Origin: Patescibacteria group bacterium
GTDB lineage: Bacteria > Patescibacteriota > Saccharimonadia > UBA4664 > SCTI01
Direction: 5' to 3'
Assembly: GCA_004297735.1 (NCBI GenBank)
Contig: SCTI01000002.1
Span: 160 to 64,159, forward strand
DNA length: 64,000 nucleotides
Position numbers and translations under genes: made by a program. The notes beneath the pieces are model-generated. The model had not been told where the DNA came from and did no database searches. It saw only the letters and a list, made by a program, of their open reading frames with translations. Below, piece after piece: positions 1,283 to 62,782 of the stretch (within the stretch, counting starts at the first letter, position 1; every line of letters begins with the position of its first letter).

Positions 1283-1629
1283 TGGTATCTCGACTGTCCG
1301 TAGTTCGTGCTGGCTATCAGTTGGTGACGCGATAGCCTACGGCCAGAGTGGTTTTCAAGGTCACCTACTCAGTAGTCAGTGTTGTGTTTGAGATTTTTGT
1401 TTTTGTTGAGTGTGATGGCTATCGTATGAGCCATCGAGTTGTTGTGGTAAGGAACTGTCATAATTCCGTAAGAATTGTGGCACATTCCTTATAACGATTG
1501 TGTGAGGTGGAGTTGTTTGTTGCTAGGTGCCAGGATGTTTGAACGGATTCCTCGAACCGTCGTACTGACTACCAAGTAGCTAATCTTGAAGTTTTTGTTT
1601 TTGTTTTTAAAGGACGATGCCTGGTTAAG

Positions 1630-2031: not shown

Positions 2032-2089
2032 ACTCTTTCTGCCTCTCTTTCAACCCTCTATGTGCTACCTTGTGTAACCCATTGATTAG

Positions 2090-2145
2090 ATAATACTACC
2101 CACTGCTACCCACTGTCAACGATTTTCTCTATTATTTTACCCACT
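2090..2145 (-). promoter_or_regulatory. mraZ promoter with GTGGG direct repeats (putative MraZ boxes)
   Basis: on minus strand TTGACA(2114-2119)-18 nt-TATTAT(2090-2095); GTGGG repeats (as CCCAC on + strand) at 2099, 2109 and 2140 with 10-nt spacing between the first two. Confidence 0.5.
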
Positions 2146-2157
2146 TTATGCATGAAT

Positions 2158-2190
2158 ACAAAAAAGACCACCTAATCAGTGGTCTTTTAC
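2158..2190. terminator. bidirectional rho-independent terminator
   Basis: AGACCAC-ctaatca-GTGGTCT hairpin flanked by A-run and T-run. Confidence 0.6.
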
Positions 2191-2245
2191 AATAATTGCT
2201 GGGGTTGGCGCATGTAGGGCTACTGCCCCACCTGCGCCGGAACGG

Positions 2246-2539
2246 CTACCCCAAGCGGCGCATCTCGTCGATCATGCCGTCGATCTCGCGAACGCGATTG
2301 CGTCGATGCCGACGCCCACCGTGGCGGACCGGAGGCTCGTGGAGACTCTTGGTCACCTCCTGCGGGCTGCATCCCCTCTCGCGAGCGATATAGCCGACAC
2401 GTAGCGCGGCCTGTTCGTAGCTGAGCCGATCGTCCACCGAAATCTCGTGCAGGGTCGGAACTGGGAAGCCCCACTCGATTAGGAGCCGTTTCGCATCCTG
2501 TTCCGAAAGCGTCTGATTCAAGTCAGGTGCAACTGTCAT
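2246..2539 (-). CDS. hypothetical small basic protein, high-GC (foreign)
   Basis: 97 aa starting MTVAPDLN with RBS GGAGGT 8 nt upstream; about 62% GC versus about 50% for neighbours; Arg-rich C-terminus; no recognisable family. Confidence 0.5.
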   Translation of the reverse strand: MTVAPDLNQTLSEQDAKRLLIEWGFPVPTLHEISVDDRLSYEQAALRVGYIARERGCSPQEVTKSLHEPPVRHGGRRHRRNRVREIDGMIDEMRRLG

Positions 2540-2579
2540 ACGGCGTGACCTCCGTGGTCGTTTGGGTACCGTTGCTGTG

Positions 2580-2608
2580 ATTTTACAGATGTGAGCGTGT
2601 TTTGTCAA
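2580..2608 (-). promoter_or_regulatory. sigma70-like promoter, conserved module ATTGACAAAA
   Basis: minus strand TTGACA(2603-2608)-17 nt-TAAAAT(2580-2585); same 10-mer as three island promoters. Confidence 0.55.
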
Positions 2609-2647
2609 TACTGTTAAACAAGTTTGACGAACAATATTAAATAATGA

Positions 2648-11894: not shown

Positions 11895-11917
11895 CTTTTA
11901 TATTTAGGTGAATTTAA

Positions 11918-11966: not shown

Positions 11967-13142
11967 TTACTTCGACAGCTCCTGAATCGCCCGTTCCAGC
12001 TGTGGATCACGGCCGGCGTTCAAGTCAGCCTGCTCCAGCTTAACCTCGATATCAGGCTTAATTCCAACCTTATCAATCCCTTGCCCGCTAGGGGTAAACC
12101 AGTGCGCTACCGTCACCTTAAGCTCAGCGCCATCACCCAGCTTAATTACTTCCTGCACGCTACCCTTACCAAAGCTCTTTTCGCCCAACAGTTGGCCGGC
12201 TTTGTTGTCGCGTAAAGCACCAGCCACAATCTCGCTCGCCGAGGCGCTACCCTCATTAATCAACACCACTAGCGGCAATCCAACCAGCTGGCCGCCACCG
12301 GTAGTCTGGAGTCGCTCAACCGTCCTACCCTGACGCCGCTCCTCTACCACCGTCTTGCCATCAGGCAAGAACTGGCTCGAAACATCAACCGCACCATCCA
12401 AGTACCCACCAGGATTGTTGCGCAGGTCCAAAATCACCTTGGTCGCACCCTGAGCCTTAAGATCAGCGGCGGCCTGCTGGAGCTTAGCTACAGTATCGCT
12501 GCCAAACTGCGTTAGCTGAATATAGCCAATGCCATTCTCTTTCATACTCGACTTAACGCTTGGCACCGTGATCACGTCGCGCACAATCTTAATCTCAATT
12601 GGCTCGCTGCTGCCCCTGATTATCTTAAGCGTTACCTCGCTGCCTTTTGGCCCGCGAATCTTACTTACAGCCTCGTCCAGCGTCATGGTTGAGCTGTCTT
12701 GGCCGTTGATGCTAATAATTACGTCTCCAGCACGCACTCCGGCCTTAGCGGCCGGGCTATCAACAATTGGCGAAACCACGGTCAGCTTGTTGTTGCGAAT
12801 CGCCACCTCGGCGCCTACGCCCGATAAAGTACCATTTAACTGGTCTTCAAGATCCTTGGCTTCCTTTGGCTTAAGGTAAACCGTATAAGGATCTCCCAAT
12901 CCGGCTACCAGCCCGGCCTTCGCACCTTCCAGCGTATCGTTTGGCTTAACCTCACCATCAAACTTTTTAACCAGGGTGTCGTATATCGATGATAGTTCGT
13001 TAAAATCAGGGCGCTCATTTGCGGCCGGACCGCCAAACGTCACCACCGTTGGGGCCAGCTGACCACCAACAAACCCAATCGCTAGCAACACCACCGCTAT
13101 CAGGGTGTTGCGCACACTAAATCGAGAGGGTTCTGGATTCAA
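11967..13142 (-). CDS. ctpA: C-terminal processing peptidase (S41) with PDZ domain
   Basis: 391 aa; N-terminal TM, PDZ, S41 catalytic Ser/Lys region (GSASASEIVAGAL). Confidence 0.8.
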   Translation of the reverse strand: MNPEPSRFSVRNTLIAVVLLAIGFVGGQLAPTVVTFGGPAANERPDFNELSSIYDTLVKKFDGEVKPNDTLEGAKAGLVAGLGDPYTVYLKPKEAKDLEDQLNGTLSGVGAEVAIRNNKLTVVSPIVDSPAAKAGVRAGDVIISINGQDSSTMTLDEAVSKIRGPKGSEVTLKIIRGSSEPIEIKIVRDVITVPSVKSSMKENGIGYIQLTQFGSDTVAKLQQAAADLKAQGATKVILDLRNNPGGYLDGAVDVSSQFLPDGKTVVEERRQGRTVERLQTTGGGQLVGLPLVVLINEGSASASEIVAGALRDNKAGQLLGEKSFGKGSVQEVIKLGDGAELKVTVAHWFTPSGQGIDKVGIKPDIEVKLEQADLNAGRDPQLERAIQELSK

Positions 13143-19517: not shown

Positions 19518-19882
19518 GGTGACCTCCAGGGTCGTGGGACGGATGAACTTGATGAATCGGCTGACGAACTTGTCAGCCGTCTGGCGGGTGAGGTGCACGT
19601 TGGGCATGACCCCTCCTTTCGGATGGCTGACAAGACTACCGCGTAGCCCAACTACGCGGTTACGGTGATGTGTACCGAAACCTGGGAATATATCGTGGGC
19701 GGCACAAATATATTCCCAGAGTACGGCACACAGCCTAATCGCGTAGAGGACTGTGCAAATGTCTAGTTCTATAGGTATCAAGGGTCTTGATGACCCATGA
19801 CTATCTAGCTTGTCAATGTCCCCTCATCTGAACCAGTTCGGTTGATTTCTCCACCTCACCTCTGTTCTTCAGAGTGAATATA

Positions 19883-19911
19883 ACAATATATCATGCTTAT
19901 GCATTTTTGTC
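19883..19911 (-). promoter_or_regulatory. sigma70-like promoter, conserved module ATTGACAAAA
   Basis: minus strand TTGACA-17 nt-TATATT about 350 nt upstream of the secreted-protein start; AT-rich spacer. Confidence 0.5.
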
Positions 19912-20032
19912 AATACTTAAGCTGTATAAAATGCTTATGATTTTAGTGCATTCTCATAAGATATAATTCCTGTGCTTGGGGCCAGATCGTACAATCTGAT
20001 CTGACCCCAGTTCTCTATCTATTCCGAACCTG

Positions 20033-20950: not shown

Positions 20951-21004
20951 GTACACCTCTAGAGGTTGAATTTTCAGAGAACGTGTCCCTTTACGGGATA
21001 TTAC

Positions 21005-21033
21005 ACTATATAATACTTTTGTTTTTTTGTCAA
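21005..21033 (-). promoter_or_regulatory. sigma70-like promoter, conserved module ATTGACAAAA
   Basis: minus strand TTGACA-17 nt-TATAGT, then RBS AGAGG before the start codon. Confidence 0.5.
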
Positions 21034-21142
21034 TCTAAGAATCGACTATGTTTAATCTGGTTTTCATCTGTTGAGCGTGGATTCGTGGGAGGTAAAGTGG
21101 GGCCCTGGAGCGGCAGAGTTGCCGCCCCAGGGTTGAGTCGCA

Positions 21143-21430: not shown

Positions 21431-21597
21431 AATCTGGCACCCTCCTCAGGGCTTCAAGATCTACAGATCGTGAACTTCTGCGGTAGGGCATCCGTGCCCC
21501 TCCTATGTGGTTGCTTTCCTATCTGATACGACTCTGGGTGACTTGATCACCCACGAATCAACACATCGCTGTCAACGTACGATGGACAAATATACCA

Positions 21598-21626
21598 TAA
21601 AGCTTACGTTTTGTCAATGATTTTAC
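21598..21626 (-). promoter_or_regulatory. sigma70-like promoter, conserved module ATTGACAAAA
   Basis: minus strand TTGACA-17 nt-TATATT; followed by the 7-bp-arm palindrome TGGGTGATCAAGTCACCCA (21528-21546). Confidence 0.5.
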
Positions 21627-35581: not shown

Positions 35582-36635
35582 AGGTCACCACGACCATTAA
35601 GGCGATTAAAGCGGCAAAACCAATGGTATGTACGGTAGCCTCAAAGCGTTCCGACAGCCGTCGGCGGGTAAGCTTTTGGGCAGCGATTAAGGTCCAGCGC
35701 CCACCGTCTAGGGCGGGCAGCGGTAGAGAGTTTAGCACCGCTAACGATACCGAGATTGAGGCGACAAACAACAGTACGTACGACACTCCAAAGTAAGCCA
35801 TGTTGGCCAAAATCGACACAATTCCAACCGGACCGGCTACCTGCTGACTCACCTGCCCCTGCGTTAGCAAGCCGGCTACCAAACCACCAAAAGCCGCCAG
35901 TGTAGCCCACACCATCTGGGCGGTCAAACCGGCCGCGGTGATTACCGCGTCTACCGGACGATACTGTAGCTTGTAGGTTTGAATTGGTGTGACTCCAAGT
36001 TGGCCCTGTTTTTCGTCAGCGCCACGCAAAGTAGTTGTAATGGTGCGAGTGCCCTGGTCACCTGCAACCTCAAAGCTAACCGTTTGGCCGGCCTGAGCCT
36101 TGGTGAAATCAAGCAACTGCTGCTCCGATTCCAGGGGCTGGCCGTTGGCGCTTAACACCACCTCTCCCCGCTCAATTCCCGCCTTAGCGGCCGGTGAATC
36201 TTTGGCGACCGATACCACCATTACCTGTTTGGGCTGATCGTAGGTTGGTTGGCCAAAGCTAAACTGATTGGCCAGTACCGGTGGCAGCCCACTAATACAT
36301 AGTCCGAGCAAGATGATGTAAGCGGCAACCAAGTTCATGGTGACTCCGGCAAACAAAATCTTGGTCTTTGACCAAAAACTGGCCGCGTTAAAACTGCCAG
36401 CCCCTTGGTCTGCCGTATCCTCACCCTTGAGTTTGACAAATCCGCCCAACGGCAACCAGTTGATTGAATAAACCGTCCGGCCGACTTTTTTGCCAATAGC
36501 GCGGGGCGGGAAACCAAAACCAAACTCCTCTACCTCAACCCCGCTACGCCTGGCCGCCACAAAATGACCCAGCTCGTGCACAAACACCAGTAGTCCAAAA
36601 ATTGCAATTACTAACAGAATAATAAGCAAGCTCAT
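35556..36635 (-). CDS. rseP: RIP zinc metalloprotease RseP (site-2 protease)
   Basis: 359 aa; HExxH (HELGHF), PDZ domain, LDG motif. Confidence 0.8.
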   Translation of the reverse strand: MSLLIILLVIAIFGLLVFVHELGHFVAARRSGVEVEEFGFGFPPRAIGKKVGRTVYSINWLPLGGFVKLKGEDTADQGAGSFNAASFWSKTKILFAGVTMNLVAAYIILLGLCISGLPPVLANQFSFGQPTYDQPKQVMVVSVAKDSPAAKAGIERGEVVLSANGQPLESEQQLLDFTKAQAGQTVSFEVAGDQGTRTITTTLRGADEKQGQLGVTPIQTYKLQYRPVDAVITAAGLTAQMVWATLAAFGGLVAGLLTQGQVSQQVAGPVGIVSILANMAYFGVSYVLLFVASISVSLAVLNSLPLPALDGGRWTLIAAQKLTRRRLSERFEATVHTIGFAALIALMVVVTFVDIQRLN

Positions 36636-42633: not shown

Positions 42634-43779
42634 CTACTGCCGAGGCGCCTCACCCAGCGTTACCTCAATTGTCTGCTGCTGGCCATCACGCCACACCGTC
42701 AGCTTAACCTTATCTCCAGGCTTGTAATCGTTAATTAAGGTTGAGAGACTGTGATCTTCATCAATGGTCTTGTTGTTAACCTTAATAATAATGTCGCCCT
42801 CTTTTAATCCGGCCTTAGCGGCGGGACTGTCGGCCGCTATTGCGGGCTGACCCTGACTGCTGGTTAAGTAGGCACCGGCGGTGACCTTAAGGTCGTTACT
42901 GGCGGCAAACTCCTTGGTTACAGGTATGTAGCGCACTCCAATGTAAGCCTTTACTATCTTCCCCTGGGTTTTAACCGTTTCTAGCTGGGCTGCAATTTGG
43001 TTGATGGGAATAGCAAACCCTATACCCTGGGCATTACCCGCCACAGCGGTATTGATACCAATCACCTTACCGGTCAGATCCACCAGCGGACCACCCGAGT
43101 TGCCAGGATTAATGGCGGCATCGGTTTGAAAAAGATTCTGGAGCTGCTCAACCTTGTTGCCCTGCTGATCACCGGCAGCCACCGGGCGCCCTAAGCCCGA
43201 AATGATACCGGTGGTAACGGTGTTTTCAAACTGCCCAAGCGCGTTTCCGATCGCCATAACCTGCGTACCAACCTGAATCTTTGATGAGTCACCTAGCTCA
43301 GCCGCTTTTAGCCCACTGGCTTTGATCCGTAAAAAGGCAGTGTCATTTTGGGCGTCACGCGCCACCACCTGCACATCCTTATACTCCTTACCTTCCGAGG
43401 TAAAAACGGTTAGATTACTGGCACCTTCAATCACATGGTTGTTGGTGATGATCAAGCCATCCGAACTGGCAATAACCCCAGTACCGGCGCCCTGGGTGGT
43501 TTGTGAGGCCCCAAAAAAGCTAAAGCCGGTTGATTCCGAGGTGATCGAGACCACACTCGGTGAGACCTTTTTTGCCACCTCGATCGTGGCCGAACTTTGT
43601 TCTAATAAGATTGACTGTTTGCTAACAGGAATCAAGCCCGGCACCAGCCGAGCCAGTCCAAAAGTGGTTAAAGACCCGCCAATAATGCCGCAGATCAATG
43701 CCACTAGTACAAATCGCCCGGCAAATGGACGGGGCGTTAGCGGATTTGATTTAGTTGGTTTTGCCTCGGTATCTGTCAT
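42634..43779 (-). CDS. htrA: HtrA/DegP family serine protease with PDZ domain
   Basis: 381 aa; TM anchor, trypsin-like His/Asp/Ser (GNSGGPL), C-terminal PDZ. Confidence 0.8.
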   Translation of the reverse strand: MTDTEAKPTKSNPLTPRPFAGRFVLVALICGIIGGSLTTFGLARLVPGLIPVSKQSILLEQSSATIEVAKKVSPSVVSITSESTGFSFFGASQTTQGAGTGVIASSDGLIITNNHVIEGASNLTVFTSEGKEYKDVQVVARDAQNDTAFLRIKASGLKAAELGDSSKIQVGTQVMAIGNALGQFENTVTTGIISGLGRPVAAGDQQGNKVEQLQNLFQTDAAINPGNSGGPLVDLTGKVIGINTAVAGNAQGIGFAIPINQIAAQLETVKTQGKIVKAYIGVRYIPVTKEFAASNDLKVTAGAYLTSSQGQPAIAADSPAAKAGLKEGDIIIKVNNKTIDEDHSLSTLINDYKPGDKVKLTVWRDGQQQTIEVTLGEAPRQ

Positions 43780-53268: not shown

Positions 53269-55002
53269 ATGAGTGAAAGTGATAAAACTGTGACTCTCGC
53301 TCAAGCGCCCAAGAAGGCGCTGGTGTATCTCCGTGTGTCCTCGGCCCAGCAGGCCGAGACCGACTACGACGTTGAGGGCTTCTCGATCCCAGCTCAGCGC
53401 GAGGCCTGCAGGCGCCGTGCCGCGGAGCTAGAAGCTGAGGTCGAAGCAGACTTCGTCGATCGCGGCGAGTCGGCCAGAAGCGCTGACCGCCCAGCCCTGC
53501 AACGGATGCTGGCCAGGCTTGAAGCCGGCGGCATCGATTACGTCATCGTCCACAAGCTGGATCGACTGGCGCGTAACCGGGCCGACGACGTCGAGATCGC
53601 GATGCGGATCAAGGCAGGCGGTGCGGTGCTGGTCTCCGTCACCGAGAACATCGATGAGACGCCATCCGGGATGTTGGTTCACGGAATCATGTCCTCGATC
53701 GCCGAGTTCTATAGCCGCAACCTGGCCTCAGAGATCGTCAAAGGCTCCCGGCAGAAGGCCAAGAACGGCGGCACGCTGACCCGGGCGCCCATTGGGTACC
53801 TGAACGTGCGCGAGTTCGTAGATGGCCGCGAGATCCGCACTATCGGTATCGACGAGGAACGAGCGCCGTACGTGCAGCTGGCGTTCGAGCTCTACGCCAC
53901 CGGCAACTACTCGCTGTCGCAGCTCTCCACGCTGCTCGAACACCAGGGGCTGCGTTCCCGGGCTACTCGCCGGCGGCCGAGCGTCCCGGTCACGGCCAGC
54001 AAGCTTCAGGCGATTCTGCGCAACCCGTACTACAAGGGCATCGTCTCCTACCAAGGCGAGAGCTTCCCCGGTCGGCATCAGCCGCTCGTTGACGACGATC
54101 TGTTTGAGCGAGTCGGCCAAGTCCTCTCCGGCAAGAAGCTCAGTGGCGAGCGGGACCGCAAGCACCGTCACTACCTCAAGGGCTCGCTCTACTGCGGCGA
54201 GTGCGGCCGCCGTCTGACGTTCAGTCGCAACACCGGCAATGGTGGCTCCTACGACTACTTCGTCTGCAGTGGCAAGCAGCGCAAGACCTGCAGCCAGGGA
54301 TATCTGCGCACCGATCACATCGAGGCTGAGGTCGAGAAGCTCTACGCGACAGTCCAGCTGACGACCAAGCAGCGCGCAGAGATCCGCCGCCTGGTTGAGA
54401 CACACCTCGATGCCATGCGGGCGGTGACCGACGCCGAAGCCAACAAAGCCACGGCTGAGATCACAAAGCTGCTGCGCGAAGAACGCAAGCTGCTTGAGCT
54501 GTACTACGCAGACCTCGTGAGCCGCGAGGCCTACGCCGAAGAGACCAAGCGGATTGCCGACGGCAAGCGGGCCGCCCAGCGACGTATTGACGAAGCTTCA
54601 GGAACTACACAGGAGCTACTCGAGGCACTCAACCGTGCGCTGGAGATGACAACCAACGCGCACAAGACCTACCTGATGTCCGACTTCACCGGACGCCGCC
54701 TAATGAACCAAATGTTCTTCAAGCGGATCGAGGTCAAGGCCGACGAGATCGATGACGTCAAGCTCTCCGACCCCTACGCCCAGCTACTGGCCCAGGACCT
54801 GCTGGCAGAAGCCGAGGAAGCCGCCAGAGAGGCCGCCGCTACCGGCGTCTGGGAGGCCCCGGAACTTCAGGCCGAACCGGCCACAGGGCCCGGAAACCAA
54901 AGAACCCTCGGCCTTTCTTTGGCCGAGGGTTCCATTAGTACTGCTGTCATGGAGCTGTGGGGATTCGAACCCCAAGCACGAAGATTATCGGTCCTTTGCT
55001 AG
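53269..55002 (+). CDS. large serine recombinase (phage-integrase type)
   Basis: 577 aa; N-terminal resolvase domain with catalytic Ser (LVYLRVSSAQQ), recombinase domain, Zn-ribbon (CGECGRR...FVCSG) and coiled-coil; RBS AAAGGAGGTG; the 3' end of the ORF runs into tRNA-like copy B, so the true stop is uncertain. Confidence 0.85.
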   Translation: MSESDKTVTLAQAPKKALVYLRVSSAQQAETDYDVEGFSIPAQREACRRRAAELEAEVEADFVDRGESARSADRPALQRMLARLEAGGIDYVIVHKLDRLARNRADDVEIAMRIKAGGAVLVSVTENIDETPSGMLVHGIMSSIAEFYSRNLASEIVKGSRQKAKNGGTLTRAPIGYLNVREFVDGREIRTIGIDEERAPYVQLAFELYATGNYSLSQLSTLLEHQGLRSRATRRRPSVPVTASKLQAILRNPYYKGIVSYQGESFPGRHQPLVDDDLFERVGQVLSGKKLSGERDRKHRHYLKGSLYCGECGRRLTFSRNTGNGGSYDYFVCSGKQRKTCSQGYLRTDHIEAEVEKLYATVQLTTKQRAEIRRLVETHLDAMRAVTDAEANKATAEITKLLREERKLLELYYADLVSREAYAEETKRIADGKRAAQRRIDEASGTTQELLEALNRALEMTTNAHKTYLMSDFTGRRLMNQMFFKRIEVKADEIDDVKLSDPYAQLLAQDLLAEAEEAAREAAATGVWEAPELQAEPATGPGNQRTLGLSLAEGSISTAVMELWGFEPQARRLSVLC

Positions 55003-59764: not shown

Positions 59765-62700
59765 CTAGCTGCAGCCGGCGGTGCTGCCACAGCTATTGCA
59801 GACGGGGCAAGGCCCACCCTTGCGAACCATCAAGCCACCGCAATCGGAACAGATGCCCGCCACGGACAGGCCGAGGTAGGTAAGCGGCTGCTCCGCAGGC
59901 GAATCCGGCTTGCTACCGTCACCGGTTGTCGAAACAGCAAGCTCCTGCTGAGCTGCCTCCGCGTACTCGACCGGAGTCGACCCACCGGCATCCTCAGCCA
60001 TCTTGCGCTTGCGCACCTCAGGCGTCAAGATGCCGAGCTCCTCCTGGACATCCGTATCCAGGAAGCGGCTGGCCAGCCAGCGCATGATGTAGTCCGGCAG
60101 ACTCTTGGCGAACGGGATCTCGATGTTCTCGGTGATCCCTTCCGGCTCGAATCGCACGAAGCTGAACTTCTCCACCAGCGTCTCAAGCGGCACCCCGTAC
60201 TGGAGCGCGATCGAGATCGCCGTGGCGAAGGAGTTCATCATGCCCTTGAGCGCTGAGCCTTCCTTGCCGAGACCGTTGATGAAGATCTCTCCCATCGTCC
60301 CGTCCTCGTACATACCGGCCACAATGTAGCCTTCGTGACCTCCGAGGACGAACTTGTGAGTGATCGACTTGCGCTCCCGCGGCATCCTCCGGCGAGCCGG
60401 TGTGCCGCGAGCGATCTCGACGAGGATCAGGGTGATCATCTCCGACTCGTCCGCCGTCAGGACCTTGCGGTCACCAATGAGGGACTCGTAGAGATCGCCG
60501 ACTGCCTTGAGTGTGGGCACGCCCTTGATCAGGGCATGCTCGAACACCTCGCACAAGGCCTCGACCGCCGCGCGCTGGATCGGCTCGCCGAGCTCAACGC
60601 CCGACTCGCCCTTACCCATCTGCGCGTCCGTGCGCAGCGCCTGGGCGGTCTTGGACCCATCGCGGTAGATGGCCAGAGCCTTGACGCCGAGGCGCCAGGC
60701 CTGGGTGTACGCGTCAGCGATGTCCTCGACGGTGGTCTCCTGCGGCATGTTGACCGTCTTGGAGATCGCACCGCTGATGAACGGCTGAACCGCACCCATC
60801 ATCTTGATGTGGCCCATGTGGCTGATCGCCCGCTCGCCGACCGCGACATCGAACACCGGCAGGTGCTTCGGGTCGAGACCCGGAGCGCCGATGATCGTGC
60901 CGTGCTCGGTGATGTACTCCTCGATGACCTCGATCTTCTGGTCGTTGTACCCGAGGGTACGCAGAGCCAGCGGAACCGTCCGGTTAGGGATGGTCATCTG
61001 ACCGCCACCAACCAGCTCCTTGAACTTGACCAGCGAGAAGTCCGGCTCGACGCCGGTGGTGTCGCAGTCCATCAGGAACGAGATCGTCCCCGTCGGTGCG
61101 AGCACCGTGGCCTGCGCGTTGCGGTAGCCGTGCTGCTCGCCGAGCGTGACCGCCTGATGCCAGGCAAGGCGCGCCTCGGCCAGCAGATCCATGTCACGAA
61201 TGTGACCATCCGGGATCTGCTGTGCGGCGTCATGGTGCATCCGCATCACCTTGTTGTGCGGCTCGCGGTTATCGGCGTACCTGTCGTACGGACCGATGGC
61301 CGCCGCGATCTTGGCCGACTGAGCGTAAGCCCGACCGGTCATGAGCGCGGTGATGGCCGCCGCCGTTGCCCGACCCTTGTCGGAGTCGTACGGCATGCCG
61401 TTGGCCATCAGGTAGGCACCGAGGTTGGCGTACCCCAGGCCGAGCTGACGGAACGCTCGCGCGTTATCACCGATCTCCTCCGTCGGGTAGGACGAAGGGC
61501 CAACGATGATCTCCTGCGCCAGGAACACGATGTCCACCGCTTGCTTGAAGCGCTCGGTGTCGAACGTGCCATCCTCACGCCGGAACTTCATCAGGTTCAG
61601 CGAGGCCAGGTTGCAGGCCGAGTCATCGACATGCATGTACTCGCTGCACGGGTTCGAGGCGTTGATGCGCCCCGAGTTCGGATCGGTGTGCCACTGGTTG
61701 ATGGTGGTGTCGTACTGCACGCCAGGGTCGGCACAGCGCCAGGCCGCCTCCGCGATGTCTCGCATCAGGTCCCGAGCCGGAATCGGATCGCCGACCGGAT
61801 CCCCGGTCTTGCGAGCGATCAGGTGCCAGTCCTCGTCGTTCTCGACCGCCTGCATGAACTCGTCCGACACGCGGACCGAGTTGTTGGCGTTCTGGTACTG
61901 AACGTGCCTGAAGCCGCGACCGTCGATGGACATGTCGAAGCCCTTTTCCTGCAGAGCCCCGGCCACCTCTTCGGCCTCGACCTTACACCAGATGAACTCC
62001 CGGATGTCCGGGTGGTCCACGTCCAGCACTACCATCTTGGCCGCCCGACGTGTCTTGCCGCCGGACTTGATGGTGCCGGCCCAGGAGTCGGCGCCACGCA
62101 TGAACGACACCGGTCCGCTGGCCGTGCCGCCCTTGCTCAGCGGCTCCATCGAACCGCGGATCGCCGACAGGTTGATGCCGGAACCGGAGCCGCCGCGGAA
62201 GATCTTACCCTCCCGCGTGTTCCAGTCCAGGATCGAATCCATCGTGTCCTCGACACTCAGGATGAAGCAGGCCGAGCACTGCGGGTTCTCTTCGAACCCG
62301 ACGTTGAACCAGACCGGGCTGTTGAAAGCCGCCGCCTGGTCCAGCAGCAGGAAGAGCAGCTCGTCGTAGAAGATCGAGGCCGGGTGATCGGGCTCCTGCT
62401 CACGCAGAACCTCGATCTTCCCCCGCCCAGGACCGAAGTAGCCCCTGGCCATACCCCACTGGGTGATGGTCTTGGCAACCCGGCCGGTCATCTGCCTGAC
62501 CGAGCGCTCACGCGTCGGTGAGCCCAGCTGTCCGCGGAAGTACTTCTGCGCCACGATGTTGGTGGCGTTCTGGCTCCACAACTTCGGGAACTCGACGTCC
62601 TTCTGCTCGAACGCGACCTTGTCGCCGTGACCGATGCGCGCGTCACGGGTCTCCCAGTCGACGGTGTCGAACGGGTGCACGCCCTCCTTGGTGAAGTAGC

Positions 62701-62782
62701 GCGTGATCTTGAGAGGCTTGCTAGCTACGCCGTTATGGGGCGCCGCCAGCGTCTGCTGACCTTCGGTTTCGGTCGATGCCAT
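59765..62782 (-). CDS. nrdJ: class II (adenosylcobalamin-dependent) ribonucleoside-diphosphate reductase NrdJ, actinobacterial type, high-GC
   Basis: 1005 aa; RNR barrel motifs, C-terminal CxxC...CxxC ribbon; about 63% GC with GC3-rich codons, unlike nrdR upstream. Confidence 0.9.
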   Translation of the reverse strand: MASTETEGQQTLAAPHNGVASKPLKITRYFTKEGVHPFDTVDWETRDARIGHGDKVAFEQKDVEFPKLWSQNATNIVAQKYFRGQLGSPTRERSVRQMTGRVAKTITQWGMARGYFGPGRGKIEVLREQEPDHPASIFYDELLFLLLDQAAAFNSPVWFNVGFEENPQCSACFILSVEDTMDSILDWNTREGKIFRGGSGSGINLSAIRGSMEPLSKGGTASGPVSFMRGADSWAGTIKSGGKTRRAAKMVVLDVDHPDIREFIWCKVEAEEVAGALQEKGFDMSIDGRGFRHVQYQNANNSVRVSDEFMQAVENDEDWHLIARKTGDPVGDPIPARDLMRDIAEAAWRCADPGVQYDTTINQWHTDPNSGRINASNPCSEYMHVDDSACNLASLNLMKFRREDGTFDTERFKQAVDIVFLAQEIIVGPSSYPTEEIGDNARAFRQLGLGYANLGAYLMANGMPYDSDKGRATAAAITALMTGRAYAQSAKIAAAIGPYDRYADNREPHNKVMRMHHDAAQQIPDGHIRDMDLLAEARLAWHQAVTLGEQHGYRNAQATVLAPTGTISFLMDCDTTGVEPDFSLVKFKELVGGGQMTIPNRTVPLALRTLGYNDQKIEVIEEYITEHGTIIGAPGLDPKHLPVFDVAVGERAISHMGHIKMMGAVQPFISGAISKTVNMPQETTVEDIADAYTQAWRLGVKALAIYRDGSKTAQALRTDAQMGKGESGVELGEPIQRAAVEALCEVFEHALIKGVPTLKAVGDLYESLIGDRKVLTADESEMITLILVEIARGTPARRRMPRERKSITHKFVLGGHEGYIVAGMYEDGTMGEIFINGLGKEGSALKGMMNSFATAISIALQYGVPLETLVEKFSFVRFEPEGITENIEIPFAKSLPDYIMRWLASRFLDTDVQEELGILTPEVRKRKMAEDAGGSTPVEYAEAAQQELAVSTTGDGSKPDSPAEQPLTYLGLSVAGICSDCGGLMVRKGGPCPVCNSCGSTAGCS

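What the first reader, a model, noticed from the sequence alone, without database searches (positions are those of the whole stretch)
2196..2647. Isolated 0.4-kb high-GC insertion between mraZ and glyQS using the same promoter module
A 97-aa Arg-rich protein gene at about 62% GC is wedged between the dcw cluster and glyQS. It has a near-consensus promoter (TTGACA-17-TAAAAT) built on the same ATTGACAAAA 10-mer as the island at 18-21.7 kb, a strong RBS and a 3' hairpin. This suggests the same acquisition mechanism acted at a second locus.
Basis: seen in the sequence. Interest (0 to 1): 0.55.

Follow-up and report, generated by a model that had tools for sequence, protein, structure and literature searches.

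The report
Swappable small gene in invariant frame
The GC-rich 97-codon gene between glyS and mraZ of this Saccharibacteria-like genome is real, but it is not a one-off insertion: seven related genomes carry it at the same site, with a nearly invariant promoter, leader and 3' hairpin around a coding part that differs greatly even between near-identical strains.

Summary
A 97-aa ORF lies on the minus strand (2539..2246) at 62% GC. It has TTGACA-17-TAAAAT, a GGAGG ribosome-binding site and 3' hairpins. ATTGACAAAA occurs 4 times in the window against 0.11 expected.

The gene has no homologue among about 15 billion proteins outside a narrow clade, where seven alleles all sit between glyS and mraZ, all at 62-65% GC.

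Across the alleles the promoter core, the 5' leader from about the transcription start, the first codons, a GGGGTAGCCGTT box and a 13-bp hairpin are about 90-100% conserved. The coding interior falls to 30-41% aa identity between the two allele groups. In three strain pairs whose flanks are 94-98% identical, the CDS is only 50-70% identical.

Synonymous sites in these pairs are 2-6 times more diverged than in the flanks, and dN/dS is below 1. This points to old alleles swapped by homologous recombination, not to in-place hypermutation.

The leader's first 10 nt are predicted to pair with the box at the stop codon.

The promoter resemblance to the 18-21.7 kb island is an extended -35 with equal spacing, not a shared module.

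The protein's function is unknown. It has an acidic four-helix domain (possibly a degenerate HTH), an Arg-rich linker and a C-terminal helix.

The parts
2580..2609 (-). Near-consensus sigma-70 promoter: A-TTGACA-AAA (2609..2600), 17-nt spacer, TAAAAT (2585..2580). The spacer contains ACATCTGT, which is palindromic and conserved in 6 of 7 alleles.
   Evidence: conservation
2540..2575 (-). Invariant 5' leader GCAACGGTACCCAAACGACCAYGGAGGTC..., starting at about the inferred TSS (A2573/A2572). It includes the 5' clamp arm AACGGTACCC (2573..2564) and the SD GGAGG (2553..2549), which lies inside a small GACC/GGTC hairpin.
   Evidence: 35 of 39 columns invariant in 6 alleles. The 4 nt between the -10 and GCAACGG vary. 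Unique in the window.
2246..2539 (-). CDS of the 97-aa protein (P0001). The first 5-12 codons are conserved and the interior is hypervariable among alleles. Predicted layout: four helices (13-22, 27-35, 41-55, 59-67), a disordered Arg-rich linker (72-83) and a C-terminal helix (86-96).
2241..2252 (-). 3' clamp arm GGGGTAGCCGTT, which contains the stop codon here. It is predicted to pair with the 5'-terminal AACGGUACCC (10 bp with a 1-nt bulge).
   Evidence: Invariant in 7 alleles, and kept in L110 and L112 where the stop codon lies upstream. Base-pair probabilities are 0.44-0.57 for two of the ten pairs and 0.83-0.99 for the other eight, in 6 alleles. The 12-mer duplex is -14.2 kcal/mol, reached by 0.34% of shuffles.
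2207..2238 (-). Conserved 13-bp hairpin GGCGCA.GUGGGGC-AGUA-GCCCUAC.UGCGCC, followed by the invariant AACCCCAG (2206..2199).
   Evidence: 100% of 91 cells paired. One compensatory GC>AU change and two C>U changes that keep a G-U pair only on the sense strand. The other two changes fall in the loop and the internal loop. Unique in the window.
2156..2188 (-). Intrinsic terminator (stem 2188..2162 plus a U-tract). Its sequence varies among relatives but the hairpin is kept.

Best explanation
This is a real, clade-restricted gene for a small cytoplasmic protein. It sits in a fixed 'expression frame' within a variable hotspot between glyS and mraZ.

Shown:
- The frame is a consensus promoter, a leader conserved from about the transcription start, a Shine-Dalgarno site, the first codons, the GGGGTAGCCGTT box, a 13-bp hairpin and a terminator.
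- The frame is nearly invariant in seven genomes, whose other genes are saturated at synonymous sites in the deeper comparisons.
- The coding interior exists as deeply diverged alleles, far older than the strains that carry them.
- All alleles keep 62-65% GC and a conserved hydrophobic core.

Inferred:
- Alleles are exchanged between strains by homologous recombination, using the invariant frame and the neighbouring housekeeping genes as homology arms. Natural competence makes this feasible in Saccharibacteria.
- The transcript's 5' end pairs with the box at the stop codon. Together with the adjacent hairpin, this would protect both RNA ends and support strong, steady expression.
- The protein keeps its fold while its surface changes because it binds a fast-evolving partner, in an immunity-, antitoxin- or anti-defence-like role. 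Its parts are an acidic four-helix domain with a possibly degenerate helix-turn-helix, an Arg-rich linker and a C-terminal helix. This last step is the weakest (about 0.3).

The raised GC is a stable property of the family. It may be inherited from an old high-GC donor or maintained locally. It is not the mark of a fresh insertion.
For: Rarity and synteny. Only 7 proteins were found among 5.8 billion clusters, and a profile search of 1.84 billion representatives found nothing beyond marginal hits. All seven lie between glyS and mraZ.

Conserved frame against variable CDS. See the alignments. The L001-L111 identity profile shows 93-100% in most flank windows and 37-63% inside the CDS, with sharp edges.

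Three strain pairs, X against flanks:
- L001-L111: mraZ 96% and rsmH 94% nt; X CDS 50% nt.
- L003-L112: mraZ 96% nt; X 33% aa.
- L084-L110: glyS 94%, promoter 97% and 3' flank 94% nt; X CDS 70% nt.
- Flank pS is 0.12-0.20. X pS is 0.45-0.73 and X pN is 0.25-0.46.

Other points:
- dN/dS is 0.13-0.74 in all pairs, so the gene is coding and under purifying selection.
- The substitution spectrum is unbiased.
- GC3 is 0.70-0.74 in all six alleles measured.
- Hairpin covariation; clamp prediction and shuffle test.
- The box is kept beyond the stop codon in L110 and L112.
- The AF2 model has pLDDT about 90 over residues 11-65.
- hhalign gives 69% probability to HTH_23-type units.
- The N-domain net charge is -2 to -7 and the tail is +4 to +8.
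- The L111 contig was assembled in 2 samples.
- Natural competence and homologous recombination in Saccharibacteria are reported in PMC10633639.
Against: - L110, L111 and L112 are short contigs (1.0-2.6 kb). The invariant flanks exceed typical assembly k-mers, so assembly chimeras could produce the allele/background discordance. L111's left flank (the end of glyS) is only 84% identical to L001.
- The clamp arms are invariant, so no covariation tests the pairing. The complementarity was found post hoc, and the TSS is inferred, not mapped.
- The same two arms are also a DNA inverted repeat.
- Hairpin covariation rests on a single double change (66 of 500 shuffles do as well).
- There is no partner gene, no toxin and no defence-family hit.
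- Foldseek found no structural neighbour.
- There is no Pfam, PHROG or NCBIfam hit, so the proposed role is a guess.
- No relatives at 68-89% GlyRS identity were sampled, so when the gene arrived is unknown.
Confidence: 0.55

Rival explanations
1. One reading: a recently and horizontally acquired high-GC gene, for example from an actinobacterial host or its phage. It would have been installed by the same mechanism, and with the same promoter module, as the 18-21.7 kb island.
For: The composition is atypical. The 10-mer is shared with 17-nt spacing. A GC-rich hairpin follows the stop, as in the island genes. Other GC3 0.87 genes occupy the same gap in L087 and L089. The only remote sequence similarity is to proteins rich in Ala, Arg and Gly that carry repeated HTH units.
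Against: The gene is present at the same site in all 7 clade genomes. The alleles are saturated at synonymous sites yet all have GC3 0.70-0.74, so the composition is at a steady state. No donor was found among about 15 billion proteins, phages or plasmids. Promoter similarity ends at 10-13 nt, whereas the island promoters are 81% alike over 37 nt. The 10-mer occurs in other Saccharibacteria and varies in L112. No tRNA gene lies in the window, and the only recombinase gene found is about 50 kb away.
Confidence: 0.15
2. In-place rapid evolution. The gene diverges quickly in each lineage under positive or relaxed selection, without any allele exchange, and the flanks are simply constrained regulatory DNA.
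For: dN/dS is higher than in the neighbours (0.2-0.74 against 0.02-0.13). Surface residues vary while core residues are kept.
Against: Synonymous divergence of X is 2-6 times that of the flanking genes in three strain pairs. Positive selection alone does not produce this. The breakpoints are sharp. Flank variants and allele types are mosaic.
Confidence: 0.12
3. Assembly artefact. The alleles belong to more distant co-occurring lineages, and short-read assemblers joined them to the flanks of another strain through the invariant elements. There would then be no exchange in nature.
For: L110, L111 and L112 are 1.0-2.6 kb contigs. The invariant stretches are 33-50 nt. In L111 the left flank is 84% and the right flank 96% identical to L001.
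Against: In L084-L110 both flanks match at 94-97%. L111 was assembled in two samples. Three independent pairs from different samples show the same pattern. Among the long contigs (205-495 kb), L084 is no more distant from the window in mraZ, rsmH or GlyRS than L001 is, yet its allele is 35% rather than 79% identical.
Confidence: 0.13
4. The functional product is a structured RNA or a DNA-level switch, and the ORF is incidental. The inverted repeats AACGGTACCC and GGGTAGCCGTT would flank an invertible or mobile cassette.
For: The non-coding ends are more conserved than the CDS. There is 10-bp inverted complementarity. The transcript folds better than shuffles, with z of -2.6 and -1.9.
Against: The ORF is intact in 7 alleles, with in-frame indels, dN/dS below 1, a conserved hydrophobic core and a confident fold. 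All 7 copies have the same orientation. There is no second copy in the window, no Rfam match and no adjacent recombinase.
Confidence: 0.05

Closest known systems
Polymorphic allele loci with conserved flanks, such as pneumococcal comC/blp pherotypes, the staphylococcal agr variable region and colicin-type immunity genes (from my own knowledge, not tested here)
   Same: A short coding segment exists as deeply diverged alleles between near-identical flanks. Allele age exceeds strain age, and exchange by homologous recombination in a naturally competent organism is plausible.
   Different: There is no signal peptide, no processing or sensor genes, and no adjacent toxin or bacteriocin. The conserved flanks here are the gene's own promoter, leader and 3' RNA elements rather than neighbouring genes. 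The protein family is unrelated to any of these.
HTH_23 / homeodomain-like helix-turn-helix units (Pfam PF13384), as repeated in P0005 and P0006
   Same: Residues 41-69 align to the A.ELGCSP.TV..L core (hhalign probability 69%; BLASTP 9e-7 in a single pairwise comparison). The model shows helix 41-55, a 3-residue turn and helix 59-67.
   Different: No Pfam model reaches even E = 1. Foldseek finds no HTH neighbour. The would-be recognition helix is variable and carries Asp in group B. The domain is net acidic.
Genomic-island or hotspot cargo acquired from high-GC donors
   Same: Atypical GC, location in a gap that holds different cargo in relatives, and a GC-rich hairpin after the stop as in the window's island genes.
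   Different: The gene is fixed at one site across the clade, no mobility genes or repeats adjoin it, and its composition is at a steady state across saturated alleles.
mRNA end-protecting structures, such as 5' stem-loops like the ompA or ermC leaders and 3' REP-type hairpins (from my own knowledge)
   Same: The 5'-terminal nucleotides are predicted to be base-paired. A stable hairpin lies just 3' of the CDS and upstream of the real terminator.
   Different: Here the 5' end pairs with the stop-codon region about 320 nt away and closes the whole CDS into a loop. I know of no described bacterial family with this arrangement, and it is not experimentally shown.
Integron gene cassettes (attC)
   Same: A short ORF followed directly by an imperfect palindromic hairpin with unpaired bases, and variable content between conserved ends.
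   Different: The gene has its own promoter, there is only a single hairpin, there is no GTTRRRY core and no IntI. The alleles are homologous to each other rather than unrelated cassettes.

Membership tests
HTH_23-like helix-turn-helix DNA-binding domain | Significant match to a curated HTH profile | tested here: not met
   No Pfam or NCBIfam HTH model at E <= 1 for any of the 7 alleles
HTH_23-like helix-turn-helix DNA-binding domain | Profile-profile or structural similarity to known HTH units | tested here: inconclusive
HTH_23-like helix-turn-helix DNA-binding domain | Basic, conserved recognition helix | tested here: not met
   Residues 59-67 vary among the alleles and carry Asp in group B. 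The N-domain net charge is -2 to -7.
   GC 0.62 and GC3 0.71. Both values together are reached by 0.09% of native 97-codon windows.
   Present between glyS and mraZ in all 7 clade loci. Relatives at <=68% GlyRS identity lack it.
   No tRNA in 64 kb. No repeat family flanks the gene. The nearest recombinase gene is at 53269-55002.
Shared mobile promoter module with the 18-21.7 kb island | Sequence homology beyond the core promoter hexamers | tested here: not met
   Identity is limited to ATTGACAAAA, or AGTATTGACAAAA with the promoter at 19913. The island promoters at 19913 and 21033 are 81% alike over 37 nt.
Diversity-generating retroelement variable region | Adenine-specific substitutions against a template repeat, with a reverse transcriptase nearby | tested here: not met
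   All 12 substitution types occur, C<>G is the commonest, and there are indels. No second copy lies in the window. The reverse transcriptase was not searched genome-wide.
Integron cassette / attC | Promoterless ORF, attC with R''/L''-L'/R' boxes and a GTTRRRY core, IntI integrase | tested here: not met
   The gene has its own consensus promoter. No GTTRRRY lies next to the hairpin on reading the sequence. The only recombinase found in the window is a large serine type.
Invertible (phase-variable) segment | Inverted repeats flanking the segment, and both orientations seen | tested here: not met
   A 10/11-nt inverted repeat is present, but all 7 copies are in the same orientation.
Polymorphic immunity or antitoxin locus | Cognate toxin or defence gene adjacent; match to known immunity or defence families | tested here: not met
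   The neighbours are glyS and mraZ, and the extra ORFs in L084 and L112 have no Pfam hit. No PADLOC hit.
Polymorphic immunity or antitoxin locus | Allele divergence far above the background, with fold and core conserved | tested here: met
Rho-independent terminator and sigma-70 promoter | GC-rich stem plus a U-tract; TTGACA-17-TAnAAT | tested here: met
   The hairpin is kept with a different sequence in relatives.

The most novel reading that the evidence does not exclude
The invariant promoter, leader, clamp and hairpin form a dedicated landing frame. Strains of these episymbiotic Saccharibacteria would use it to swap alleles of a strain-identity or immunity determinant. The 5'-3' clamped mRNA would be a previously undescribed bacterial design for constant high expression of whichever allele is installed. 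The protein would set compatibility with a fast-evolving partner such as a phage, a competitor toxin or an actinobacterial host factor.
Probability: 0.15. Interest if true: 0.75.

Novelty: new variant of a known kind. Interest (0 to 1): 0.5.

Why it matters
Patescibacteria have tiny genomes, many orphan genes and almost no mapped regulation. This locus offers three things that can be tested in the genetic system now available for Saccharibacteria.

- It is a clear case of allele exchange at a single small gene in an uncultivated clade. That bears on how much recombination and balancing selection shape these symbionts.
- It is a compact, strongly conserved expression unit (promoter, leader, 3' elements) that could serve as a natural expression cassette.
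- It gives a candidate conflict or compatibility factor to look at in the interaction between epibiont, host and phage.

It also warns against reading a GC-rich gene with a strong promoter as a recent insertion.

Tried and rejected
Searches and scans with no informative result:
- Pfam, PHROGs, NCBIfam and PADLOC scans of all alleles gave nothing.
- A profile search of PDB sequences gave only E 0.58 to an SSV-type integrase fragment.
- Rfam gave only a sub-threshold Trp-leader match caused by the hairpins (22.6 against 41 bits) and no family in the whole window.
- A phage or plasmid reservoir was not found: no tblastn hit, and no viral-contig match to the protein profile or to either conserved flank.

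Ideas tested and rejected:
- DGR, integron and inverton readings were rejected on their defining features (see the membership tests).
- 5'-3' complementarity is absent from the three island genes, so the clamp is not a shared island design.
- GlyRS-anchored synteny in 80 GTDB species genomes did not help. Identity is at most 63%, glyS-mraZ adjacency is mostly absent, and it gives no information on the junction.
- Cluster look-up of the marginal HTH-repeat hits gave no taxonomy.
- The palindromic ACATCTGT over the -10 could be an operator. It is not kept in L112 and was left untested.

Full report
1. THE OBSERVATION

On the minus strand, an ATG at 2539 opens a 97-codon ORF that ends at TAG 2248..2246. 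It encodes 14 Arg, most of them in a block at residues 72-84.

The CDS is 61.6% GC with GC3 0.71. The GC-rich block 2197-2575 (62.8%) lies between AT-rich flanks of 29% and 33%, in a window of 53.4%. Of 1,119 native 97-codon windows, 0.5% reach this GC, 2.4% reach this GC3 and 0.09% reach both.

Upstream lie TTGACA, 17 nt and TAAAAT, matching 11 of 12 consensus positions, and a GGAGG Shine-Dalgarno site. Downstream lie a GC-rich hairpin and then a U-tailed terminator.

ATTGACAAAA occurs four times in the window: here and three times in the 18-21.7 kb island. All four are on the minus strand, against 0.11 expected. The 64 kb contains only 21 TTGACA hexamers and five near-consensus promoters: these four plus mraZ. 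The description is accurate and well above chance.

2. ORGANISM AND RELATIVES

NCBI lists the protein as a hypothetical protein of a 'Patescibacteria group bacterium'. The best GlyRS matches among GTDB species genomes are Saccharibacteria at no more than 63% identity.

A word-indexed search of 5.8 billion protein clusters found only the protein itself and two relatives. A profile search of 1.84 billion representatives added only marginal hits. Iterating with newly found alleles brought the family to seven proteins.

Group A holds P0001, P0002 and P0003, which are 72-84% identical. Group B holds P0007 to P0010, which are 30-41% identical to group A and 49-70% identical to one another. Every allele lies between glyS and mraZ.

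No Pfam, PHROG, NCBIfam or PADLOC family matches. There is no phage, plasmid or viral-contig match.

3. AN INVARIANT FRAME AROUND A VARIABLE INTERIOR

The alignments show five conserved elements:
- the promoter core;
- the leader from GCAACGG onward, with 35 of 39 columns invariant in six alleles, while the four bases between the -10 and GCAACGG vary, as expected if conservation starts at the transcript's first base;
- the first 5-12 codons;
- the box GGGGTAGCCGTT;
- a 32-nt hairpin followed by AACCCCAG, with 47 of 54 columns from GGGGTAG to CCCCAG invariant in seven alleles.

Between the window, L001 and L003, the neighbouring genes have pS of 0.52-0.82, which is at or near saturation. This conservation is therefore constraint or homogenisation, not recency.

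The interior of the CDS is about 50% identical in nucleotides between the two allele groups. In L110 and L112 the stop codon lies upstream of the GGGGTAG box, yet the box is intact. The box is therefore conserved as nucleic acid, not as Gly-stop.

4. THE ALLELES ARE OLDER THAN THE STRAINS

| Strain pair | Flank identity (nt) | X identity | Flank pS | X pS | X pN |
|---|---|---|---|---|---|
| L001-L111 | mraZ 96%, rsmH 94%, mraZ-rsmH spacer 98% | CDS 50% nt, 41% aa | 0.12-0.19 | 0.73 | 0.45 |
| L003-L112 | mraZ 96% | 33% aa | 0.14 | 0.72 | 0.46 |
| L084-L110 | glyS 94%, promoter 97%, 3' flank 94% | CDS 70% nt | 0.20 | 0.45 | 0.25 |

The L001-L111 identity profile has sharp edges at the CDS.

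The synonymous divergence of X is itself 2-6 times that of the background, so in-place positive selection cannot be the whole explanation. The alleles were imported, or were maintained as an old polymorphism.

dN/dS is below 1 in all 21 pairs (0.13-0.74). Indels are in frame and the hydrophobic core is invariant (L20, W23, L30, I33, L39, A52, L66). The gene is therefore coding. All twelve substitution types occur, which excludes a DGR-type mechanism.

One caveat applies. L110, L111 and L112 are short contigs, and the invariant flanks are longer than assembly k-mers, so chimeric paths are possible. Four observations argue against chimeras:
- both flanks of L084-L110 match;
- L111 was assembled in two samples;
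- three independent pairs show the same pattern;
- among the long contigs (205-495 kb), L084 is no farther from the window than L001 is, yet it carries a 35%-identical allele.

Saccharibacteria are naturally competent and integrate DNA by homologous recombination (PMC10633639). This gives a plausible route for allele exchange.

5. RNA FEATURES

The hairpin GGCGCA.GUGGGGC-AGUA-GCCCUAC.UGCGCC is fully paired in all seven sequences, 91 of 91 cells. The stem shows one compensatory GC>AU change and two C>U changes that leave G-U pairs only on the sense strand. The remaining two changes fall in the loop and the internal loop. The statistics are thin: 66 of 500 shuffles do as well.

The first ten nucleotides of the inferred transcript, AACGGUACCC, are complementary to GGGUA-G-CCGUU around the stop codon. 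RNAfold places this pairing in the minimum-energy structure of all six alleles tested, despite their different coding sequences. Pair probabilities are 0.44-0.57 for two of the ten pairs and 0.83-0.99 for the other eight. The pairing also forms when upstream bases are included.

Only 0.34% of shuffled 12-mers bind the tail as well. The three island genes show no such complementarity. Because both arms are invariant, the pairing is predicted, not demonstrated. The same arms also form a DNA inverted repeat.

Whole transcripts fold modestly better than shuffles, with z of -2.6 and -1.9. No Rfam family matches.

6. THE PROTEIN

With seven sequences, AlphaFold gives pLDDT of about 90 for residues 11-65. 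It predicts four helices, a disordered Arg-rich linker and a C-terminal helix.

Residues 41-69 resemble the core of HTH_23-type units that are repeated in two proteins rich in Ala, Arg and Gly. The hhalign probability is 69%. However, no HTH profile matches, Foldseek finds no structural neighbour, the putative recognition helix varies, and the domain is net acidic while the tail is basic.

A conserved core under a rapidly changing surface, together with strong constitutive expression signals, is what one expects of a protein that binds a fast-evolving partner. That is my preferred reading, at about 0.3. A nucleic-acid-binding regulator is the main alternative.

The gap between glyS and mraZ is indeed a cargo hotspot. 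L084 and L112 have different extra ORFs upstream of the promoter. L087 and L089 hold GC3 0.87-0.88 genes on the other strand. More distant genomes mostly lack glyS-mraZ adjacency altogether.

Like the island genes, X has an AT-rich consensus promoter, a GC-rich body and a GC-rich hairpin at the stop. An old acquisition from a high-GC donor therefore remains possible.

But X is fixed at this site across the clade, and its GC3 is the same in alleles that are mutually saturated. No tRNA gene lies in the window, and the nearest recombinase gene is about 50 kb away.

Its promoter shares only 10-13 nt and the spacer length with the island promoters. Two island promoters, by contrast, are 81% alike over 37 nt. 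The 10-mer also occurs in intergenic DNA of other Saccharibacteria and is ATTGACAAAG in L112. An extended -35 consensus explains this more simply than a common acquisition mechanism.

8. VERDICT

The locus is a clade-specific, hypervariable small-protein gene held in a nearly invariant expression frame. Its alleles are most likely exchanged by homologous recombination. Function is unknown.

It is a new variant of a known kind, namely polymorphic allele loci with conserved flanks. The predicted 5'-3' mRNA clamp is unusual. Interest is moderate (0.5).

Noticed in passing
window 2085-2140 (minus strand): The mraZ promoter (TTGACA at 2119..2114, 18-nt spacer, TATTAT) carries three GTGGGTA boxes, one upstream of the -35 and two inside the spacer. 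They are invariant in all relatives and look like MraZ operator repeats.
   Followed up: partly
window 1283-1629 (minus strand): The 347-nt mraZ-rsmH spacer is 86-98% conserved among five genomes, comparable to or above the flanking genes. RNAalifold predicts a 26-bp long-range helix enclosing hairpins, two of which show compensatory changes. An A-rich direct repeat (AACAAAAACAAAAA) precedes each arm. No Rfam match. It could be an unknown ncRNA or a domesticated MITE-like element.
   Followed up: partly
window 19878-19914, 20998-21034, 21582-21618: The island promoters at 19913 and 21033 are 81% identical over 37 nt; the third is 62% identical. Each island gene ends in a GC-rich hairpin without a U-tract (-30 to -35 kcal/mol). 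The island proteins are a 470-aa and a 95-aa orphan and a Peptidase_C39_2-domain protein.
   Followed up: partly
window 53269-55002 (+) and 59765-62782 (-): Two further high-GC genes: a large serine recombinase (Resolvase, Recombinase and Zn-ribbon domains; GC3 0.77; about 25% identity to phage integrases) and a class II ribonucleotide reductase (GC3 0.86).
   Followed up: partly
L084:2430-2888; L112:148-1074; L087:2304-2885(-); L089:2678-3262(-): The glyS-mraZ gap holds different cargo in different relatives: a roughly 150-aa orphan, a 308-aa Glu/Lys-rich orphan, and two 193-194-aa GC3 0.87-0.88 orphans on the opposite strand. None has a Pfam hit.
   Followed up: partly
window 1-64000: There is no tRNA gene and no Rfam family at gathering threshold in 64 kb. 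Only 21 TTGACA hexamers and five near-consensus sigma-70 promoters occur, so most native genes here lack a canonical -35/-10 pair.
   Followed up: no
window 12713-12761, 36152-36200, 42783-42831: A three-copy repeat family centred on the palindrome CCGGCCTTAGCGGCCGG. A second family of terminator-like AAAAACCGGCC...GGCCGGTTTTTT elements lies at 11914, 50669 and 55144.
   Followed up: no
window 2586-2596 (minus strand), in the promoter spacer: ACATCTGT is palindromic and extends to TTTACAtcTGTAAA in L001, L003 and L111. It overlaps the -10 and is conserved in 6 of 7 alleles but not in L112. It could be an operator.
   Followed up: no
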